Shown here in pieces: positions 2,180 through 54,025 of a DNA stretch of 64,000 bases. The notes under the pieces were generated by a model that was not told the origin of the DNA, did no database searches, and saw nothing but the letters and a program-made list of their open reading frames with translations. The DNA is taken from IMG/VR virus record IMGVR_UViG_3300028299_000132, positions 34,092 through 98,091 of that record, one strand, 5' to 3'. Every line of letters starts with the position of its first letter. Position 1 is the stretch's first letter. Origin of the DNA: a virus. Both the position numbers and the translations under genes were made by a program.

Positions 2180-3275
2180 TTATTTCATTTTTAAACTCAT
2201 TTTTTAATTTCAAAAATATTTTAAATATTTTTATTTCCGAATCATTTAATTTTGTGTCTGTCCAATATCCAGGGTGTTTTTGAATTGTTGAATCATCTAG
2301 TTTCTTTTTGAAATCTATAAGCGTATGTACATTATTTTCACCAGTATTTCGGTCACTAGTCAAAATTATATCATTATAATCAATCATAAGAAATGTATAC
2401 CCATCTTGTATTTGTTTAAATTCAGCTATATATGAATTATTTTTTATTTTTTTATTTAAAATAACAACCCAGAAATACCCATCTATGATATGTTGGTTGT
2501 ATATTTTCTCAGATATAGTACACCAGTATGGGTATTTTATTATATTCATTGATTCATAAGTGAATGGTTGATAAATCAACCATTCATCATCTTCATAATA
2601 TATTTTTATATCATTTGATTTTTTTAATTTTGATATATTATCTGCACTTATTAATGATTCAGTGCCTCTAACATATTTTATCCATTCTTTAGGAGTCTCA
2701 AACATAGATATTTTACCTCTCAATAGACCAATATCTATATTATCAATAAATCTTTTTTTATCAAATCGTCCAGGATTAAATAGAACATTTCTAAGATTAA
2801 AAAAATTATCTTTCTTCCTATCCTTTAATTCTTTTTTTAAAAATCCAGGAGCCCATTTATCTATAAATTTATTTGTATCTATATCTTTTTTAATGTTGTT
2901 TATATCTATTATAAGAGAAGAATGATAATTATCTATCTGTTTAATATATTTATCTATGTCTATTTTAATATTGTGATTAACAATTAAATCAATACACCTC
3001 ATTATGTTATCTAATATAGATTTCTTATCTCTTCCATTACGATTATATAATTCTAGATATAATAATCTAGTGAACAAATATAAATATCCAAGTTTACCTA
3101 AAGATTTTAAATTATTTTTTATTATTGAGTATATTTCTAAAAAATTCTTCCATTCCTCATCTGTTTGTAAATACCTACCCTCCATCCCACCGTGTTTTGA
3201 TGTCCCTTTAGGTCTATTATTTACAAATTTTTCAGCTTGCTGTAAATTTTCAAATATTTTATAATCTTTTATCAT
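2172..3275 (-). CDS. Hypothetical protein with CTS-like N-terminus (MIKDYKIFEN)
   Basis: 367-aa ORF; N-terminal tag; YPYWCTI motif. Confidence 0.7.
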   Translation of the reverse strand: MIKDYKIFENLQQAEKFVNNRPKGTSKHGGMEGRYLQTDEEWKNFLEIYSIIKNNLKSLGKLGYLYLFTRLLYLELYNRNGRDKKSILDNIMRCIDLIVNHNIKIDIDKYIKQIDNYHSSLIIDINNIKKDIDTNKFIDKWAPGFLKKELKDRKKDNFFNLRNVLFNPGRFDKKRFIDNIDIGLLRGKISMFETPKEWIKYVRGTESLISADNISKLKKSNDIKIYYEDDEWLIYQPFTYESMNIIKYPYWCTISEKIYNQHIIDGYFWVVILNKKIKNNSYIAEFKQIQDGYTFLMIDYNDIILTSDRNTGENNVHTLIDFKKKLDDSTIQKHPGYWTDTKLNDSEIKIFKIFLKLKNEFKNEIIK

Positions 3276-4504
3276 AGATATTTAGACATTAATTTTAATA
3301 GTTCTCCTCTATTTATTGGTTTTGATATGTACTCATTACATCCTAATTTCATCATACGGTCTTTATCATCCATGTACGCGAACGCGGATTGAACTATGAT
3401 TGGTATATTATTTTTATTACCCCTTATTATTTCTATGATTTTATCACCATCAATATCTGGTAATCTTATATCTAACAATAATAAATCATATTTTTTATTT
3501 TTTACCATTTCTAAACATTCCTTTCCTGTTTTAGCCCAATCTAAATTACATAATGTTGAATGTAATATTTCTCGTATTAGATTAAAATTATCTTTTATAT
3601 CCTCAGTAATAAGTATTTCTTTATGGATAAAATCATAATCAATTAACTTTTCAGATTTTTCTATTTTTTCCTCACTTACTTCAACTGGTAAAATAAAATA
3701 AAATTCTGTTCCTTTATTTAGTTCTGATTTTACATAAATTTTTCCACCAAGTAATTCTATTATTCCTTTTGATATTGATAATCCAAGTCCAGTTCCTTTT
3801 AAATATTCTTTTCTATTAACTTGGTAAAATCTATTAAAAATTTCTTCTTGATCTTCTTCACTTATACCAATCCCAGTGTCTTTAACATAGAATTTTATAT
3901 TATTATTTTCTACAATTTCACATCCATATTCAATAAATCCTTTATCCGTGAATTTTATTGAATTACTTATTAGATTATCAATCACTTGTTTTAATCTAGT
4001 TCTATCTGAAATAATATTACAATCATCTAAATCTTCTGGTAAATAATATAATAATTTTATTTTTTTATTTAGTAATTTTTGATTTATTGAAAACGATTCA
4101 TATATTTCTTCAATTAAATTATATAAAGAAAATGATATTTTTTCTAATCTTAACTCACCGACTTCTATTTTAGAAAAATCAATTATATCATTTATTAATG
4201 ACATTAATTGACTCCCATTTTTATTTATAACATCTAGATATTTTTTTATTTGTTGTTCATTGAATCCATTTGTTGTTAATAATTCAGAAAATCCTATTAT
4301 ACTATTCATAGGAGTTCTTATTTCATGACTCATATTCGCTAAGAACATTGATTTGAGTCTATCGGATTTTTCAGCTTTTTCTTTTTCTTCTTTTAATCTT
4401 TCGTTTTTCTCTGTTAACTCCTTAATAATTTCTCTTAACTCTAATTCTAATTCTCTAATCTCATTTTCTTTCTTATGTTCAAGAAATTCTTTACCATTAG
4501 CCAT
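3272..4504 (-). CDS. Hybrid histidine kinase/response regulator without a sensor domain
   Basis: FLANMSHEIRTPMN (HisKA), NLISNSIKFT, DTGIG, GTGLGLSI (HATPase), C-terminal receiver ILITED/LLDIRLP/ISKP. Confidence 0.95.
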   Translation of the reverse strand: MANGKEFLEHKKENEIRELELELREIIKELTEKNERLKEEKEKAEKSDRLKSMFLANMSHEIRTPMNSIIGFSELLTTNGFNEQQIKKYLDVINKNGSQLMSLINDIIDFSKIEVGELRLEKISFSLYNLIEEIYESFSINQKLLNKKIKLLYYLPEDLDDCNIISDRTRLKQVIDNLISNSIKFTDKGFIEYGCEIVENNNIKFYVKDTGIGISEEDQEEIFNRFYQVNRKEYLKGTGLGLSISKGIIELLGGKIYVKSELNKGTEFYFILPVEVSEEKIEKSEKLIDYDFIHKEILITEDIKDNFNLIREILHSTLCNLDWAKTGKECLEMVKNKKYDLLLLDIRLPDIDGDKIIEIIRGNKNNIPIIVQSAFAYMDDKDRMMKLGCNEYISKPINRGELLKLMSKYL

Positions 4505-20671: not shown

Positions 20672-20881
20672 ATGATAACACTTTCATCGGGATATAGACC
20701 ATTATTTAGAGACTAGATAAATACTTTTTGTTCTAATAATGATATCATAATTACATATAAAAGTAATCTTGGTAATGGTAGATATGATGATTTTTATAAT
20801 TTTTATGGTGATGTACATAATATTGACAAATTGGAAAAATATGTTAATCAACTTGAAGAGAAAAGAAAAAAACAAAAATGA
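20672..20881 (+). CDS. Hypothetical protein with in-frame TAG at 20714-20716
   Basis: MITLSSGYRPLFRD*INTFCSNND...EEKRKKQK; A-rich leader; TGA overlaps next ATG. Confidence 0.7.
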
Positions 20882-40064: not shown

Positions 40065-40563
40065 TTGGGTATCCTCGTTAAAATAACGAGGTTAACGCTT
40101 CACAGACAAGGTGCTTCTCTGTTTTAACAACAAAGTCCACAGAGCTCGCCTCCACGTTCAATGCCCGACATCCCATCGGCCAGTTTTTTTTTTGGAAATC
40201 CACCAATTCCTTTAAAGAATCGTTTATATGCGTGATCTAGGTTCAATAATGATCCCTGTAAGGATTGACTGTTTATTTCCTTTAACCAATTTAATTCTTC
40301 TTTCAAATCAACTACCTGTTTCTGTAAATCAAATCTTGATATATTAACTTTGTTTCTGTACGCGTTAATTTTTGTTTCAAGCGCGAGATTATAAATAAAT
40401 CTTGTTGACCCAAAATGCTTATTTAATAATTCTTTCTGATCATCTGTGGGATATAAACGATATTTAAAGGCTTTTAACATATATTTATATATAAAATATT
40501 CAATATGCTTTTTTATCTATAAAAAGGCTGTACCTAACCCCACCTCAAGGGGATGGGGAATTC
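40065..40563 (-). mobile_element. Internally deleted IS605-family tnpB remnant (different end sequences)
   Basis: TnpB N-terminus MLKAFKYRLYPTDDQ...GGFPK fused to a 3' GC-rich omegaRNA-like tract; hairpins cctcgtta/taacgagg and cccca..tgggg. Confidence 0.8.
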
Positions 40564-47279: not shown

Positions 47280-47441
47280 TCATTTGTATTCAACAAAATC
47301 TTTTCTTTTAAATATTTTTTTATACCAGGGTAGTGCATTCCATCGGTGTACTTTTGCCTAGTGTTCAGTTAAGTCATTTAATGTTTCTCTAGCTAGTTCA
47401 GCTACTTCTTTTCGCCTTTCAATTTCGTTTATATTTTCCAT
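47280..47441 (-). CDS. Small protein with in-frame TAG at 47358-47360
   Basis: MENINEIERRKEVAELARETLNDLTEH*AKVHRWNALPWYKKIFKRKDFVEYK; fills the operon gap. Confidence 0.7.
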
Positions 47442-47446
47442 ATTTT

Positions 47447-48514
47447 TTAAATTTTAATGTATTTAAATTCGTGTTGGTATTCAATTTTCTTTAAAACTTC
47501 AAAGATTAAATCTTCAGTTTTTTTAATATCTTCAATATCAACAGTTTCCACTGTTGTGTGCATATATTTCAAAGGAAGTGATATCAAACAAGATGGAACT
47601 CCACCTACGGAGTACGCGAAAGAATCAGTGTCGGTTCCTGTTGAACGACTACAAACTTTTCTTTGAAAATCAATCTTTTGTTTTGTTGCGACTCCCTCAA
47701 CCAATTCAAGGAGTTTTTGTTGAATCGGTGCACCATATGTTAAAACTGGTCCTTTACCGCAACGAATATCACCATTTTTCATTTTTTCCATCATTGGTGT
47801 TGTTGTATCGTGTGTTACATCAAGAATTAACGCTGCGTTTGGACGAATTGTTTCCACAATCATTCTAGAACCTCTAAGTCCAACTTCTTCTTGTACCGCG
47901 TTAACAACATATAAACCAAATGGTAATTTCACTCCTTCTTCTCTTAGTCGTTTAACAACCTGTGTTAGAATATAACCACCCATTTTGTTGTCTAATGCAC
48001 GACCAGTATAGAATTTATTATTCATTTTTGTTAATTCATCTGGATATGTGACTAAACACCCAACATAAATTCCTGATGATTCAACATCCTTTTTTGATGT
48101 AAATCCACAGTCAATAAAGATATTATCCGCGGATGCGTGAGTTTCTTTGGTACCAGTACCTCTTGTATGAATCGCTGGCCAGCCAAAGAATCCAGGTATT
48201 AGTCCATTTTTAGTATGGATATTAACTCTTTTAGATGGTGCTATTTGATGATCTGCTCCACCATTTTTTTTCACATAGATATATCCTTTATCTGTTATAT
48301 AACTAACAATAAATGATATTTCATCAACATGTGCTTCAATTACTACTTTAAAATCAGAATCTGGATTAATTATACCAACTGCGGTTCCATAATGGTCGGT
48401 TATAAATTTATCAACATAATCCTTCATATAATTTACCCAAATTTGTTGGGATTCATTTTCATATCCACTTGGGGATAGACTGTTTAGATAAAGTTCTAAA
48501 AATTTTTTACTCAT
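47447..48514 (-). CDS. M42-family aminopeptidase
   Basis: SPSGYE, EAHVDEI, RALDNKMG, VQEEVGLRG, LDVTH, GTDTD, YMHTTVE. Confidence 0.92.
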   Translation of the reverse strand: MSKKFLELYLNSLSPSGYENESQQIWVNYMKDYVDKFITDHYGTAVGIINPDSDFKVVIEAHVDEISFIVSYITDKGYIYVKKNGGADHQIAPSKRVNIHTKNGLIPGFFGWPAIHTRGTGTKETHASADNIFIDCGFTSKKDVESSGIYVGCLVTYPDELTKMNNKFYTGRALDNKMGGYILTQVVKRLREEGVKLPFGLYVVNAVQEEVGLRGSRMIVETIRPNAALILDVTHDTTTPMMEKMKNGDIRCGKGPVLTYGAPIQQKLLELVEGVATKQKIDFQRKVCSRSTGTDTDSFAYSVGGVPSCLISLPLKYMHTTVETVDIEDIKKTEDLIFEVLKKIEYQHEFKYIKI

Positions 48515-48707
48515 AATTACTGTTTATATTAAATAATGTGTTAAAAAAATGCATCATCATAATCATTCCAGATATAATAACCAAGAATAATTGCCATCCA
48601 ACTGGTTCAATACCATATAATGAATAAACCATTGATAGATAAAGACAATATCCAGACCCTAAAAACACCAAGAGATTAAGAAAGAATTGTGAAAATTTCG
48701 CTCTCAT
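48507..48707 (-). CDS. Small membrane protein
   Basis: Two TM segments. Confidence 0.6.
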   Translation of the reverse strand: MRAKFSQFFLNLLVFLGSGYCLYLSMVYSLYGIEPVGWQLFLVIISGMIMMMHFFNTLFNINSNYE

Positions 48708-48925
48708 TGGTCTCTAGATTTTAAAATTTTTAATATTATTCCCATTCCTGTACCACAAGATAACATCATTATTACAGCGAAAGTTTTGATATTGAATTTG
48801 TAGATAGTTAATTCTGGTTGATATGGGATTATATCCAAAAAAGATAAACATGCAAGAAAATAAAATAGGAACAAAAAACCATATCCAATTAAAAATTCAG
48901 AATTAATATCTTTTATGTATCTCAT
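48704..48925 (-). CDS. Small membrane protein
   Basis: Start at MRYIKD, downstream of the tRNA; two TM segments. Confidence 0.6.
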   Translation of the reverse strand: MRYIKDINSEFLIGYGFLFLFYFLACLSFLDIIPYQPELTIYKFNIKTFAVIMMLSCGTGMGIILKILKSRDQ

Positions 48926-48942
48926 TATTATTTGATTATCAG

Positions 48943-49017
48943 TGAGTTGAGTGGGATTTGAACCCACGACAAAGTGTTTTAGGGGCACTTGTTCTAACCA
49001 GACTGAACTATCAACTC
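48943..49017 (-). tRNA. tRNA with CUA anticodon (amber suppressor)
   Basis: GAGTTGA/TCAACTC acceptor, GTTC/GAAC D stem with GG, AGTGC-CCCTAAA-ACACT anticodon arm, GTGGG-TTCAAAT-CCCAC T arm, A73, no encoded CCA. Confidence 0.9.
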
Positions 49018-49754: not shown

Positions 49755-51130
49755 AAAAATGTCAAAAGAAAACCACGATGTCTTTAGCATCGTGGATGAA
49801 TTTTGACGAACATCATTCAAATTATTTTTGGAAAAATATGACTTTTTCATTTTAATATATATTTATAATAAAGAAAACGAAAAAAGTTGTATAAAATGAA
49901 AAAGAGTTATTCTATAAGACTATTTCCGATTAAAGAACAGATAAGTCAATTAAATGAATTATCTGAAATAAGGAAAGATATATGGAATAAACTCATTGAT
50001 GTTCAACAAAAAGAATATGAAACAAACAAAACTATATTAAACAAATTCGATTTGAATAATTTACTTCCAGAATTAAAAGAACAATATATAAATTGGAAAA
50101 AATTAAATTCAAAAGCCGTTCAAACTATTGCCACAGAAATATACGGTTCATATCGTTCATTTTTCAATTTAATTAAAAAAGATAAAACGGCAAGACCACC
50201 AAGAAAGATAGATTCTGACTATTATCATACTATCGTTTGGAATCAGTCTGGTTGGATTATTCAGAGTAATATAATAACAATTAATAAGATTCCATTTGAA
50301 TATAAATCAAAAATAGATATATCAACATTAGATATAAAAGAAATCAAAATTAAATTTGTAAGAAATAAATGGTTATGTGATTTGATTGTTGAAGAACCAA
50401 TACAATATGAAGATAATCTAAAAATTAAGACTAAAGTTTTAGCAATCGATTTGGGTTTAGAAAAATTAGCAGTAGGTGTTGATAACAAAGGTAAAATGAT
50501 TGTATTGAAGAATAAATCAAAGAAAATAAATGATTATTATCAAAAAGAAATAGCAAAAATACAAAACAAAAGAAGTAAAACCAATAAAGGTTCAAAAAGA
50601 AATTTAAAATTAAAGAAAGTATTAAATAAATGTTACCATAAAAAGAACGAACAGATAAAACAAACTCTACATATTCAGAGTAAATATTTAGTGAATATGA
50701 ACTACAACACAATTGTAGTCGGTGATTTAAGTGTTAAAAATTTAATGAATAGTGAAGGTGTTAATAAAAACAAAAAAGGTATTAGAAAATCTTTTCACAA
50801 ATCTAATATTAATATGTTTTTACAATTTCTTGGTTATAAATGTCAGTTAAAAAACACAAACCTAACCAAGATAAATGAAAATTGGACTACTCAATTAAAT
50901 TGTTTAACTGGAAAGGTATTCAAAGAAAAAATTGAACTTAAAGATAGACAAGTTCAATTATCAGATACAATCACTATTGATCGTGACTTAAATTCAGCCA
51001 TAAACATTCTTAAACGATGGTTTGATAGTCATATTGCTTCTATGAACGAGCCACTTAATATTTTAAGTGTTCTTGATAGATACAACATCTATAAGGAAAC
51101 TACGACATCTTTAGTGTCGTAGTAGTTCAT
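49755..51130 (+). mobile_element. IS200/IS605-family tnpB-only element
   Basis: Inserted 3' of TTTAT; left-end hairpin ccacgatg-tctttag-catcgtgg; right end actacgacatctttagtgtcgtagtagttcat; no target duplication. Confidence 0.9.
49896..51122 (+). CDS. tnpB: TnpB-family protein with atypical RuvC-II and degenerate Zn finger
   Basis: AIDLG, IVVGDL (no Glu), INENWTTQ, DRDLNSAINI. Confidence 0.85.
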   Translation: MKKSYSIRLFPIKEQISQLNELSEIRKDIWNKLIDVQQKEYETNKTILNKFDLNNLLPELKEQYINWKKLNSKAVQTIATEIYGSYRSFFNLIKKDKTARPPRKIDSDYYHTIVWNQSGWIIQSNIITINKIPFEYKSKIDISTLDIKEIKIKFVRNKWLCDLIVEEPIQYEDNLKIKTKVLAIDLGLEKLAVGVDNKGKMIVLKNKSKKINDYYQKEIAKIQNKRSKTNKGSKRNLKLKKVLNKCYHKKNEQIKQTLHIQSKYLVNMNYNTIVVGDLSVKNLMNSEGVNKNKKGIRKSFHKSNINMFLQFLGYKCQLKNTNLTKINENWTTQLNCLTGKVFKEKIELKDRQVQLSDTITIDRDLNSAINILKRWFDSHIASMNEPLNILSVLDRYNIYKETTTSLVS

Positions 51131-51992: not shown

Positions 51993-52331
51993 TTATTTCT
52001 CCTTTTCTGTATAATTAAAATATTTTTCATTTCCTTTATATTCTTCTTTAACCGCTCTTCCATAGATAGTTCTAGTCCATCCATTTTGGTATCCGTGATT
52101 GTTAGCGATTAAATATCCTCGTTTGTCACTTTTTTGTGTGATTAAATGGCAATCAATATATCTCCCTCTCACCTTACAGAAGACCATATCTCCTATATCA
52201 TAAGAATCTTGTTTAACGAATGTCATTAATCCACCATTGTTTAGGGTTGGTTTCATTGAGTTACCAAAACATTTCATTTTTCCTTTTTTATTTTCGTCTA
52301 ATTCATTAATTAGTCTTTCGTACTTATTCAT
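51993..52331 (-). CDS. S24/S26 peptidase-like protein
   Basis: GNSMKPTLNNG, IGDMVFCKVRGRYIDCHLI, IYGR. Confidence 0.65.
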   Translation of the reverse strand: MNKYERLINELDENKKGKMKCFGNSMKPTLNNGGLMTFVKQDSYDIGDMVFCKVRGRYIDCHLITQKSDKRGYLIANNHGYQNGWTRTIYGRAVKEEYKGNEKYFNYTEKEK

Positions 52332-52660
52332 TTTGTTAAGTTTAAATTTTTAGTTAATTCTTTACTTTTTTCTCCTGGTTCTATTGTAACAGAAGTATAT
52401 TGGTTTATATCTGGTTCATAAAAAATAGACATACGAATATCATTTTCAATTAGTTTTTTTACAAACATAATGAATTCGTCATAATCCTTTACAGATAAAT
52501 AAATTAAATATTTTGATTTTTCATTCCAATGGTTGGCTATTTCAGGGTGTTCATATTGGAATTGGATAGCGGAATGTGCAGATTGCACCGCTTGATAAGT
52601 TGTTGATTTTAAATCACTTCTAGTGATTACTCTTAATTTGTTGTCTCTAATCTAGGTCAT
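52328..52660 (-). CDS. Peptidyl-tRNA hydrolase (PTH2-like) with TAG at codon 3
   Basis: ATG ACC TAG ATT AGA...KLRVITRSDL...YQAVQSAHSA...LIYLSV...FYEPDI.QYTSVTIEP. Confidence 0.75.
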
Positions 52661-53423: not shown

Positions 53424-53711
53424 TCATAGTATTTCCCCACCATTTTCCTTATTCTTTCTAATGAAATCTATACCATTACTATTGGTTATTTCGTAGTCAT
53501 CTAGATTAACTTTTTGTCCATCAATAACCCCAGTATTATCTTCAATATCTGTAACCACTTTATAACCAATCATTCTCATTCTTCTAATAGTGTTAGCTTT
53601 TAAATTATCTGGTTCTGTTTTCTCAGAATTTATTATTCTATCAGACCAATTTTTGAATATTTGTTTTTGGTCACTTTCATTTATAAACTTATTAAAATCT
53701 TTCAATTTCAT
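53424..53711 (-). CDS. Tagged hypothetical protein
   Basis: MKLKDFNKFINE. Confidence 0.7.
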   Translation of the reverse strand: MKLKDFNKFINESDQKQIFKNWSDRIINSEKTEPDNLKANTIRRMRMIGYKVVTDIEDNTGVIDGQKVNLDDYEITNSNGIDFIRKNKENGGEIL

Positions 53712-54025
53712 ATTTCTCTTGGTTTTTTAGAAATCCAATTCCCATTTTTATCTATCCTTTTCATAAAGTTATCTCGCATCTCCTTTTCTCTTTTTGATAT
53801 CTCATCTTTATATACTTTAGATAATTTCATATATTTTTCATATTCTTCTGGTGTTTTAGCTTTATTAGCCTAGTATTCGTAATCAGCTACTATTTCTCCC
53901 AAATGTCGTGTTGATACATTTTTTATATCAATTCCTTTAATATCTTCCGCTTTTATCATTTTGTGTTTTAATTTTGGAGATCTAATCTCATTTATAAAGT
54001 TTTTATAATCTTTTAAAGTTTTCAT
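53708..54025 (-). CDS. Tagged protein with in-frame TAG at 53870-53872
   Basis: MKTLKDYKNFINE...VADYEY*ANKAKTPEEYEK...KKPREI; ATGA overlaps on both sides. Confidence 0.75.

What the first reader, a model, noticed from the sequence alone, without database searches (positions are those of the whole stretch)
52328..52660. Peptidyl-tRNA hydrolase gene that begins as a start-sense-stop minigene (ATG ACC TAG)
Seen: the PTH2-like N-terminal strand KLRVITRSDL..YQAVQSAH lies upstream of the ORF-track start and is reachable only from ATG 52660 by reading through TAG at codon 3. Known: two-codon minigenes (lambda bar) cause peptidyl-tRNA drop-off that Pth must recycle, and RF2 autoregulates through an internal stop. 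Inference: a feedback switch that makes Pth only when amber termination (RF1) is weak or the suppressor is present, i.e. a sensor of termination status.
Basis: partly seen in the sequence, partly recalled or inferred. Interest (0 to 1): 0.85.

Follow-up and report, generated by a model that had tools for sequence, protein, structure and literature searches.

The report
Amber-gated phage Pth2-like hydrolase gene
A 98-kb phage that otherwise uses the normal genetic code puts a UAG stop as the third codon of a small tRNA-hydrolase-like gene and carries one UAG-reading tRNA; dozens of distant phages share this pairing, so the enzyme is probably made only when that tRNA overrides the stop.

Summary
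On the minus strand the gene reads ATG(52660) ACC TAG ATT. The Pth2 fold begins at residue 9, which is 16 codons before the first canonical start after the TAG (GTG 52588).

The early stop is not an accident. 36 distinct homologous loci, down to about 35% identity, keep an in-frame TAG a few codons after the start. It is codon 3 in 28 of them. One is the cultured Tenacibaculum phage pT24.

- Where hosts use Shine-Dalgarno sites, the site serves the ATG before the TAG.
- 38 of 63 loci have a stop-reading tRNA within 3-4 kb, and all but one are on the gene's strand.
- One lineage has a TGA gate and a UCA tRNA.
- A neighbouring HD-like gene in other phages carries the same M-x-TAG-I leader.
- This phage is not recoded, and its only tRNA has a CUA anticodon (48942-49017).

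Best reading: translation of the gene is gated by the suppressor tRNA. The enzyme's substrate is unknown, because the catalytic Lys of Pth2 is replaced by Tyr.

I found no published description. This scan has reported the same module on other genomes.

The parts
52328..52660 (-). Pth2-like gene, 110 codons with TAG as codon 3. The stop TGA overlaps the ATG of the next gene.
   Evidence: sequence and frame. PF01981, 27.4 bits (cut-off 23), residues 8-108; phrog_1866, E 4e-11; pLDDT 92.4, Pth2 fold with TM 0.75-0.80.
52658..52660 (-). Start codon ATG, 4 nt after the TAA of the upstream ORF, in an A-rich leader without a Shine-Dalgarno site.
   Evidence: genes of this phage lack SD sites (8 of 103, background 6.7%) and have 60-70% A at positions -17 to -10; an ATG two codons before the TAG is conserved in 28 loci.
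52652..52654 (-). In-frame amber codon (the gate), followed by ATT.
   Evidence: Conserved in 36 distinct loci. The base after the TAG is a purine in all 36.
52619..52636 (-). Codons 9-14 (KLRVIT), strand beta-1 of the fold, ending in the invariant Arg14. This lies upstream of GTG 52588.
   Evidence: secondary structure E9-14. R14 and D16 are invariant in 17 sequences.
48942..49017 (-). The only tRNA gene in the 98-kb genome. Its anticodon is CUA. It has C33 and a C31-A39 mismatch, and no encoded CCA. It lies on the same strand, 3.3 kb downstream of the gated gene.
   Evidence: ARAGORN. Rfam tRNA, 61.1 bits, E 1e-11; anticodon loop CCCUAAA, where most other suppressors read U33.
49887..51122 (+). 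TnpB-like ORF on the opposite strand, between the gated gene and the tRNA. It probably explains the wider spacing than in relative L003 (1.4 kb).
   Evidence: translation. L003 layout. TnpB identity is read from the sequence only and was not searched.
51993..52331 (-). S24-like peptidase gene whose start overlaps the stop of the Pth2-like gene (ATGA). It is syntenic in L003.
   Evidence: PF00717, 24.3 bits (cut-off 23.3); homolog at L003 1271-1588; the same N-terminus follows the gene in L005.

Best explanation
The gene encodes a Pth2-fold enzyme that probably acts on tRNA 3' ends. Its translation is locked by an amber codon placed two codons after the start.

Ribosomes initiate at ATG 52660. 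Without a UAG-reading tRNA they release or drop a dipeptide, which is the cheapest possible abortive product. When the phage's own tRNA(CUA) is expressed and charged, it reads the UAG, which sits in a suppression-friendly context with a purine after the stop, and the full 110-residue protein is made. Enzyme synthesis is thereby tied to the activity of the suppressor.

Shown by comparison:
- the gate is conserved;
- it is anchored to the start codon;
- ribosome-binding sites serve the ATG before the gate;
- suppressor tRNAs are linked to the gene;
- in one lineage the gate codon matches the tRNA anticodon.

Inferred: that read-through happens in vivo, which amino acid is inserted, and what the enzyme does. 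My best guess is that it clears or recycles acylated or peptidyl tRNAs that build up while suppressor and RF1 compete. Alternatively it may act on the suppressor tRNA itself.
For: 1. Conservation. 36 distinct loci keep an early in-frame TAG. It is codon 3 from the nearest ATG in 28 of them. The distance from ATG to TAG is nearly fixed, while the distance from TAG to the R-x-D motif varies from 9 to 17 codons. Flanking codons vary (ACC, ACT, ACA, ACG, AAA, AAG, AAT and others).
2. Phylogeny. In the tree of 55 rows, 28 of 31 rows of one deep clade carry the TAG. It also occurs in the other major clade, so at least 4 changes are needed.
3. Ribosome-binding sites. AAGGAG-type sites lie 6-9 nt before the ATG that precedes the TAG in L010, L019, L020, L022, L023, L103 and L108.
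4. The codon after the TAG often cannot initiate (AAC, GGC, GGA, ACA, GTA).
5. tRNA linkage. 38 of 63 loci have a tRNA with anticodon CUA, UUA or UCA within 3-4 kb. All but one are on the gene's strand. In 22 of the 31 such loci tallied it is the only kind of tRNA ARAGORN found in the locus.
6. Anticodon match. L105 has an in-frame TGA at codon 11 and a tRNA(UCA) 1 kb upstream.
7. Second gene family. A stand-alone HD-like gene next to the Pth2-like gene begins M-x-TAG-(I or L) in 7 loci.
8. This genome is not recoded. Its ORF stops are 96 TAA, 34 TGA and 6 TAG, and dropping TAG as a stop adds only 1% to ORF length.
9. A start at GTG 52588 would remove beta-1, R14 and D16.
10. Link to tRNA ends. 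The HD-like partner domain is fused to the Pth2-like domain in either order. Its closest solved structures are class II tRNA nucleotidyltransferases (3wfo, 3wfr; E 5e-4).
Against: Nothing here is experimental. Expression and charging of the tRNA, the inserted residue and the read-through itself are all unobserved.

This phage's tRNA has C33 instead of the near-universal U33, plus a 31-39 mismatch. It may therefore be a weak decoder.

Many loci of one subgroup show no recognisable suppressor within 4 kb. In one complete 373-kb genome, ARAGORN found no CUA tRNA in the parts I sampled, only odd tRNA-like genes upstream of the gene.

22 homologs have no early stop, so the gate is not obligatory for the family.

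ATT or ATA follows the TAG in most loci, which is also compatible with reinitiation.

The catalytic Lys of Pth2 is replaced by Tyr or Gln, so the biochemical role is open.
Confidence: 0.75

Rival explanations
1. ATG-ACC-TAG works as a two-codon minigene whose dropped-off peptidyl-tRNA is the enzyme's own substrate. The gene is then a feedback sensor of RF1 and termination status, comparable to RF2 autoregulation.
For: The gate is anchored to the start and sits at codon 3 in 28 of 36 loci, which is the shortest possible minigene. The product has the Pth2 fold. From my own knowledge, lambda bar minigenes and drop-off of short peptidyl-tRNAs are established in E. coli.
Against: The gate also occurs at codons 4, 5, 6, 9 and 11, and some members have further in-frame TAGs deep in the gene. 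Codon 2 is not conserved. An HD-like gene that is not a Pth carries the same leader. The stop is always the one matching a linked suppressor tRNA and never TAA, which points to the tRNA rather than RF1 as the input. This phage has no SD site to drive strong minigene expression. The catalytic Lys is missing.
Confidence: 0.1
2. The TAG ends a minimal upstream ORF. The real protein starts by reinitiation at the adjacent near-cognate codon ATT (52651), so no read-through is needed.
For: ATT or ATA follows the TAG in 27 of 36 loci. In the mycobacteriophages Grungle and Myrna, a TAG lies in the spacer between the SD site and a well-placed GTG start.
Against: 9 of the 36 loci have a codon after the TAG that cannot initiate: GTA (5), AAC (2), GGC, GGA. 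A further one has ACA. Reinitiation does not explain why the stop is always TAG in genomes where TAG is the rarest stop (6 of 136 ORFs here). It does not explain the linked CUA tRNAs, and it does not explain the TGA gate with a UCA tRNA.
Confidence: 0.08
3. The phage is generally TAG-recoded (code 15), and this TAG is just one ordinary sense codon among many.
For: A CUA tRNA is present. TAG is rare as a stop. A few other frames in the window become longer if TAG is read as sense (note e1-6021516).
Against: Reading TAG as sense adds only 1% to total ORF length over the 98 kb. Most 'TAG-extended' ORFs are spurious upstream extensions of genes with normal ATG starts. Several genes end in TAG. The other candidate TAG genes have no homologs with which to test them.
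Confidence: 0.03
4. It is a decaying pseudogene, or the TAG is an assembly error.
Against: The same TAG is present in independent assemblies from dozens of samples and in cultured phage pT24. The rest of the frame is intact. The model is confident, and the invariant residues are kept.
Confidence: 0.02

Closest known systems
Stop-codon-recoded phages with their own suppressor tRNAs (TAG or TGA read as sense; Borges et al., bioRxiv 10.1101/2021.08.26.457843)
   Same: A phage-encoded suppressor tRNA lets in-frame stops be read. The authors propose that in-frame stops delay expression of certain genes until the tRNA is made. They also note standard-code relatives that carry a suppressor tRNA and use the matching stop rarely.
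   Different: Here the genome as a whole keeps the standard code. The stop sits at one conserved position, a few codons after the start, of one or two specific tRNA-related genes, and this holds across many lineages. That preprint never mentions a hydrolase.
prfB (RF2) autoregulation through an early in-frame UGA
   Same: An in-frame stop early in a translation-factor gene makes synthesis depend on how that stop is decoded.
   Different: RF2 uses a +1 frameshift, and its product terminates at that very stop. Here no frameshift site is evident, a tRNA is the likely input, and it is unknown whether the product feeds back on UAG decoding.
Lambda bar minigenes (AUG, one sense codon, stop) and peptidyl-tRNA drop-off
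   Same: The first three codons form the same start-sense-stop unit. The downstream product has the fold of a peptidyl-tRNA hydrolase.
   Different: Bar minigenes are free-standing and have no ORF behind them. They act by tying up a tRNA as peptidyl-tRNA in Pth-deficient cells (my own knowledge). Here the unit is the leader of a conserved ORF, and its stop matches a linked suppressor tRNA.
PTH2 genes already noted in jumbo phages and in the tRNA arrays of cluster C mycobacteriophages (PMC7824862, PMC5966550)
   Same: It is the same protein family and has the same association with tRNA genes.
   Different: Those papers do not mention an in-frame stop or a specific link to suppressor tRNAs. In the mycobacteriophages I checked, the TAG lies in the SD spacer and a GTG start follows it.

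Membership tests
Peptidyl-tRNA hydrolase PTH2 (PF01981; archaeal and eukaryotic Pth2) | Sequence match above the Pfam gathering score | tested here: met
   27.4 bits against 23, residues 8-108; homologs score 25-32 bits.
Peptidyl-tRNA hydrolase PTH2 (PF01981; archaeal and eukaryotic Pth2) | Pth2 alpha/beta fold | tested here: met
   pLDDT 92.4; 2zv3, 1q7s, 1xty and 3erj at TM 0.75-0.80, E as low as 3e-8.
Peptidyl-tRNA hydrolase PTH2 (PF01981; archaeal and eukaryotic Pth2) | Catalytic Lys of the G-K motif (K18 of the S. solfataricus enzyme; its role is from my own knowledge) | tested here: not met
   that position is Tyr22 here, and Tyr or Gln across the phage family. The loop is two residues shorter.
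Peptidyl-tRNA hydrolase PTH2 (PF01981; archaeal and eukaryotic Pth2) | Conserved Asp and Thr of the C-terminal D-A-G-x-T region | tested here: inconclusive
   D84 and T89 are invariant in an E-P-D-x(4)-T motif; the profile alignments to solved Pth2 run through this region and put EPD opposite DAG (24bt, 2zv3). The residue-by-residue match was not checked on structures.
Peptidyl-tRNA hydrolase PTH2 (PF01981; archaeal and eukaryotic Pth2) | NCBIfam equivalog score for Pth2 | tested here: not met
   24.3 bits against a cut-off of 126, and 22.3 against 82.
Peptidyl-tRNA hydrolase PTH2 (PF01981; archaeal and eukaryotic Pth2) | Hydrolysis of peptidyl- or N-acyl-aminoacyl-tRNA | not testable with these tools
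   Needs an enzyme assay.
Alternatively coded (TAG-recoded) phage | A large fraction of genes carry in-frame TAG, and coding density is low under code 11 | tested here: not met
   reading TAG as sense adds 1% to ORF length. At most about 5 candidate genes among roughly 136.
Alternatively coded (TAG-recoded) phage | A phage-encoded suppressor tRNA for the reassigned stop | tested here: met
Suppressor-gated Pth2-like module (the recurrent layout seen here) | An in-frame stop within about 10 codons of the start, with no canonical start before strand beta-1 | tested here: met
Suppressor-gated Pth2-like module (the recurrent layout seen here) | A matching suppressor tRNA on the same strand nearby | tested here: met
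   CUA tRNA 3.3 kb downstream on the same strand.
Suppressor-gated Pth2-like module (the recurrent layout seen here) | A gated HD-like partner gene | tested here: not met
   no HD-like homolog in the 98-kb genome (best tblastn E 0.07).
Lambda bar-type minigene | AUG, one sense codon and a stop, preceded by a ribosome-binding site | tested here: inconclusive
   The three codons are present. There is no SD site, but the phage as a whole uses none.
Lambda bar-type minigene | Causes peptidyl-tRNA accumulation or toxicity when Pth is limiting | not testable with these tools
   Needs genetics in a pth(ts) host.

The most novel reading that the evidence does not exclude
The gate closes a feedback loop. 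The Pth2-like enzyme acts on the suppressor tRNA itself, either deacylating or recycling it, or, together with the HD-like partner, maturing or repairing its 3' end. Its own UAG-dependent synthesis would then set the level of stop-codon read-through. Negative feedback would give a homeostat and positive feedback a commitment switch. Either way it would be a tRNA-operated counterpart of RF2 autoregulation, and it would explain 'orphan' suppressor tRNAs in standard-code phages.
Probability: 0.2. Interest if true: 0.9.

Novelty: new variant of a known kind. Interest (0 to 1): 0.75.

Why it matters
Phage suppressor tRNAs in genomes that keep the standard code have had no known target. This module supplies one: a specific, conserved gene that cannot be read without such a tRNA. 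In other phages there are two such genes.

It would be a natural translational switch operated by a tRNA. It is compact, needing about four codons plus one tRNA gene. It is widespread among large phages, and it is open to experiment because a cultured phage, Tenacibaculum phage pT24, carries it.

There are practical consequences too. Gene callers and GenBank records truncate these genes: the pT24 CDS starts 81 nt too late, and this window's ORF starts 24 codons too late. The module may also represent the first step on the path to full stop-codon reassignment.

Tried and rejected
- Global TAG recoding is rejected. Most 'TAG-extended' ORFs are spurious upstream extensions.
- A start at GTG 52588 is rejected on the fold.
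- ATT as the start is kept only as a weak rival.
- Other candidate TAG genes of this window (53708-54025, 20672-20881, 47280-47441, 48507-48851) have no homologs in related loci or in the protein database. They could not be assessed.
- The HD-like partner is absent from this genome.
- I considered a -1 frameshift at A_AAA_AAC for the Lak-A2 homolog. I dropped it after Lak-like contigs L112 and L117 showed an ordinary in-frame ATG and a difference in poly-A length.
- In mycobacteriophages the 'start, TAG, GTG' arrangement is better read as a TAG in the SD spacer.
- Whole-contig tRNA checks of five contigs without a local suppressor found no CUA tRNA in the sampled arrays, only odd tRNA-like genes upstream of the gene in L028. 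This is unresolved.

Tools that gave nothing:
- Three alignments were too diverse to scan with.
- Scans with P0016 and P0034 found nothing, so I could not check at DNA level whether the many database proteins starting M-x-Q-I carry TAG or CAA/CAG there.
- The genome-contig scan gave one MAG contig only.

Full report
**The observation**

The window is the right-hand 64 kb of a single 98,091-bp phage contig with 26% G+C.

On the minus strand the sequence reads ATG (52660) ACC TAG ATT AGA GAC AAC AAA TTA AGA GTA ATC ACT AGA. The frame then stays open to TGA at 52328, which overlaps the ATG of the next gene. The first ATG, GTG or TTG after the TAG is GTG 52588, which is codon 25.

- Pfam PTH2 matches residues 8-108 to nearly the whole profile, at 27.4 bits against a cut-off of 23.
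- PHROG 1866 matches at E 4e-11.
- An AlphaFold model built on 17 homologs has pLDDT 92.4 and places strand beta-1 at residues 9-14.
- Foldseek returns archaeal Pth2 and human Bit1 at TM 0.75-0.80.

A protein starting at GTG 52588 would lack beta-1 and the family-invariant residues R14 and D16.

**This phage is not recoded**

Over the 98 kb, long ORFs end in TAA 96 times, TGA 34 times and TAG 6 times. Ignoring TAG as a stop adds only 1% to total ORF length. Most ORFs that seem to gain from reading TAG are spurious upstream extensions of genes with ordinary ATG starts.

The genome's only tRNA gene has anticodon CUA (48942-49017, minus strand; Rfam 61 bits). It lies 3.3 kb downstream of the gated gene on the same strand, with a TnpB-like ORF inserted between them.

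Only two frames in the genome fit 'ATG, up to 3 codons, TAG, at least 70 open codons'. Only this one is left without a canonical start before its conserved domain. The other matches nothing I recognised and was not examined further.

**The early stop is conserved**

I fetched DNA for homologs from metagenomes, IMG/VR and GenBank phages.

36 distinct loci have an in-frame TAG shortly after the start. Their protein identity to the window ranges from 72% down to about 35%.

| Position of the TAG | Loci |
|---|---|
| Codon 3 from the nearest ATG | 28 |
| Codons 4, 5, 6 or 9 | the others |

Examples are ATG ACT TAG ATT, ATG AAA TAG ATT, ATG TTG TAG AAC and ATG CAT TAG GGC.

- The ATG-to-TAG distance is almost constant. 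The distance from the TAG to the R-x-D motif varies from 9 to 17 codons, so the stop is anchored to the start codon and not to the domain.
- Codon 2 varies, including synonymously.
- The base after the TAG is a purine in all 36. From my own knowledge, that context favours amber suppression in E. coli.
- In a tree of 55 sequences, 28 of 31 rows of one deep clade carry the stop. It also occurs in the other major clade, so at least 4 changes are needed.
- 22 homologs have no early stop.
- The family is large: 4,520 cluster representatives at E up to 1e-3. Many database proteins begin M-x-Q-I with an invariant Q-I. These are probably code-15 gene calls of the same TAG, but I could not confirm that at DNA level.

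**Translation starts before the stop**

This phage uses no Shine-Dalgarno sites (8 of 103 genes, against a background of 6.7%). ATG 52660 sits in the usual A-rich leader.

In homologs from hosts that do use SD sites, an AAGGAG-type site lies 6-9 nt before the ATG that precedes the TAG. This is seen in L010, L019, L020, L022, L023, L103 and L108. The codon after the TAG is often one that cannot initiate (AAC, GGC, GGA, ACA, GTA).

The cultured Tenacibaculum phage pT24 has ATG AAA TAG ATA. Its GenBank CDS (BPT24_235) is annotated 81 nt too short.

The mycobacteriophages are different. In Grungle and Myrna, the TAG lies in the 7-nt spacer between the SD site and an annotated GTG start.

**Link to suppressor tRNAs**

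38 of 63 distinct loci have a tRNA with a stop-reading anticodon within the 3-4 kb fetched. Most are CUA, Lak-type phages have UUA, and two loci have UCA. All but one are on the gene's strand, and some lie within 12-60 nt of the gene. In 22 of the 31 such loci tallied, it is the only kind of tRNA ARAGORN found in the locus.

The tRNAs themselves are very diverse in sequence.

One lineage (L105) has an in-frame TGA at codon 11, after an SD site and ATG, and a tRNA(UCA) 1 kb upstream. There the gate codon follows the anticodon. This is a single case.

**A second gated gene in other phages**

In 7 loci, a stand-alone gene next to the Pth2-like gene begins M-x-TAG-I, or TAG-L in one case.

Its domain is fused to the Pth2-like domain in pT24, L006 and several database proteins. 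In Xanthomonas phage XacN1 it is fused in the opposite order.

The domain has an H..HD..H..D pattern and weak HDIG and CCA-transferase hits. Its closest solved structures are class II tRNA nucleotidyltransferases (3wfo, 3wfr; E 5e-4).

This supports two points: the enzymes act on tRNA ends, and the leader is a regulatory device not tied to a single protein. This window's phage lacks that partner.

**What the enzyme is**

The fold and the Pfam score place it in the PTH2 superfamily. It scores far below the NCBIfam Pth2 equivalog cut-offs (24 against 126).

The Lys of the G-K motif is Tyr22 here, and Tyr or Gln across the family. From my own knowledge, that Lys is catalytic in the S. solfataricus enzyme. 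R14, D16, Q26, H29 and the E-P-D-x4-T motif are invariant.

I therefore call it Pth2-like. Its substrate is unknown.

**Interpretation**

The best-supported mechanism is a lock and key. Ribosomes start at ATG 52660, and the full protein is made only when the phage tRNA(CUA) reads codon 3. Otherwise only a dipeptide results. I put this at 0.75.

That idea is minigene drop-off feeding the enzyme, with the gene sensing RF1. Four things argue for the tRNA as the input:
- the gate position varies;
- codon 2 varies;
- the HD-like gene has the same leader;
- the stop is always the one matching a linked tRNA.

The strict preference for codon 3 is the one feature that keeps the minigene idea alive.

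Caveats:
- Nothing here is experimental.
- This phage's tRNA has C33 and a 31-39 mismatch.
- Several gated loci show no suppressor within the DNA I could see.

**Literature and earlier notes**

- Borges et al. (bioRxiv 10.1101/2021.08.26.457843) describe recoded phages and standard-code relatives with suppressor tRNAs, but do not mention a hydrolase.
- Iyer et al. (PMC7824862) and Morgado and Vicente (PMC5966550) note PTH2 in jumbo phages and in mycobacteriophage tRNA arrays, without any in-frame stop or suppressor link.
- Other searches found nothing closer.

This scan has already reported the same module many times on other genomes, including the HD-like partner. My results were obtained independently and agree with those reports.

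This window adds a minimal form of the module: a 98-kb standard-code phage with a single, atypical CUA tRNA, the Pth2-like gene alone, and a transposon-like insertion between the two.

Noticed in passing
window 53708-54025 (-); also 20672-20881 (+), 47280-47441 (-), 48507-48851 (-): Other small frames that become continuous if one TAG is read as sense. An example is MKTLKDY...ADYEY-TAG-ANKAKTPEEYEKY. No homologs turned up in related loci or in the protein database, so it is unknown whether they are real further targets of the suppressor.
   Followed up: partly
window 48942-49017 (-): The CUA tRNA has C33 (anticodon loop CCCUAAA), a C31-A39 mismatch and no encoded CCA. Most of the 34 suppressor tRNAs collected from other loci have U33. 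The closest relative's tRNA (L003) is unrelated in its acceptor stem, so the tRNA changes faster than the gate does.
   Followed up: partly
L105 2968-3327, tRNA at 1983-2056: A Pth2-like gene with an in-frame TGA at codon 11, after an SD site and ATG, together with a tRNA(UCA) upstream. The gate codon matches the suppressor's anticodon. Only one lineage of this kind was found.
   Followed up: partly
L007 4422-5009, L015 3341-3925, L026 5030-5614, L028 4759-5346, L035 5081-5689, L036 4839-5444, L044 4320-4916: A stand-alone HD-like gene next to the Pth2-like gene also begins M-x-TAG-I (TAG-L in L044). The same domain is fused to the Pth2-like domain in pT24, L006 and XacN1. Its closest solved structures are class II tRNA nucleotidyltransferases.
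   Followed up: partly
L066 (Tenacibaculum phage pT24, LC168164, BPT24_235): The GenBank CDS starts 81 nt downstream of the likely start ATG AAA TAG ATA. The record's tRNA-Sup (CUA) lies 2.6 kb upstream.
   Followed up: yes
L028 2990-3119, 3265-3351, 3473-3538: Three odd tRNA-like genes lie just upstream of a gated Pth2-like gene in a complete 373-kb phage. They share acceptor and T arms, have large insertions in or near the anticodon arm, and one is only 66 nt long. ARAGORN misses them, and their anticodons are unclear.
   Followed up: partly
L063 around 4340; database protein P0096: A third small domain (IVFHFNKKH...) begins M-TAG-I as a separate gene in L063. In P0096 it is fused to the C-terminus of a Pth2-like protein.
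   Followed up: no
L100 (Prevotella phage Lak-A2), about 2940-3000: The Pth2-like frame has no start codon. Compared with Lak-like contigs L112 and L117, a poly-A run differs in length, which puts the upstream ATG out of frame. This could be slippage or an assembly error. A tRNA(UUA) lies 0.7 kb upstream in all Lak-type loci.
   Followed up: partly
window 51993-52331 (-): An S24-like peptidase gene (GNSMxP motif) overlaps the stop of the Pth2-like gene through ATGA. It keeps this position in relatives L003 and L005.
   Followed up: partly
window 49887-51122 (+) and 40124-40543 (-): A TnpB-like ORF ending in TAG TAG, and a second truncated TnpB-like N-terminus elsewhere. The first lies between the gated gene and the tRNA.
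   Followed up: no
window 3272-4504 (-) and 47447-48514 (-): The phage encodes a hybrid histidine kinase with a receiver domain (read from the translation only). It also encodes an M42-family aminopeptidase (Pfam E 5e-72) just downstream of the tRNA.
   Followed up: partly
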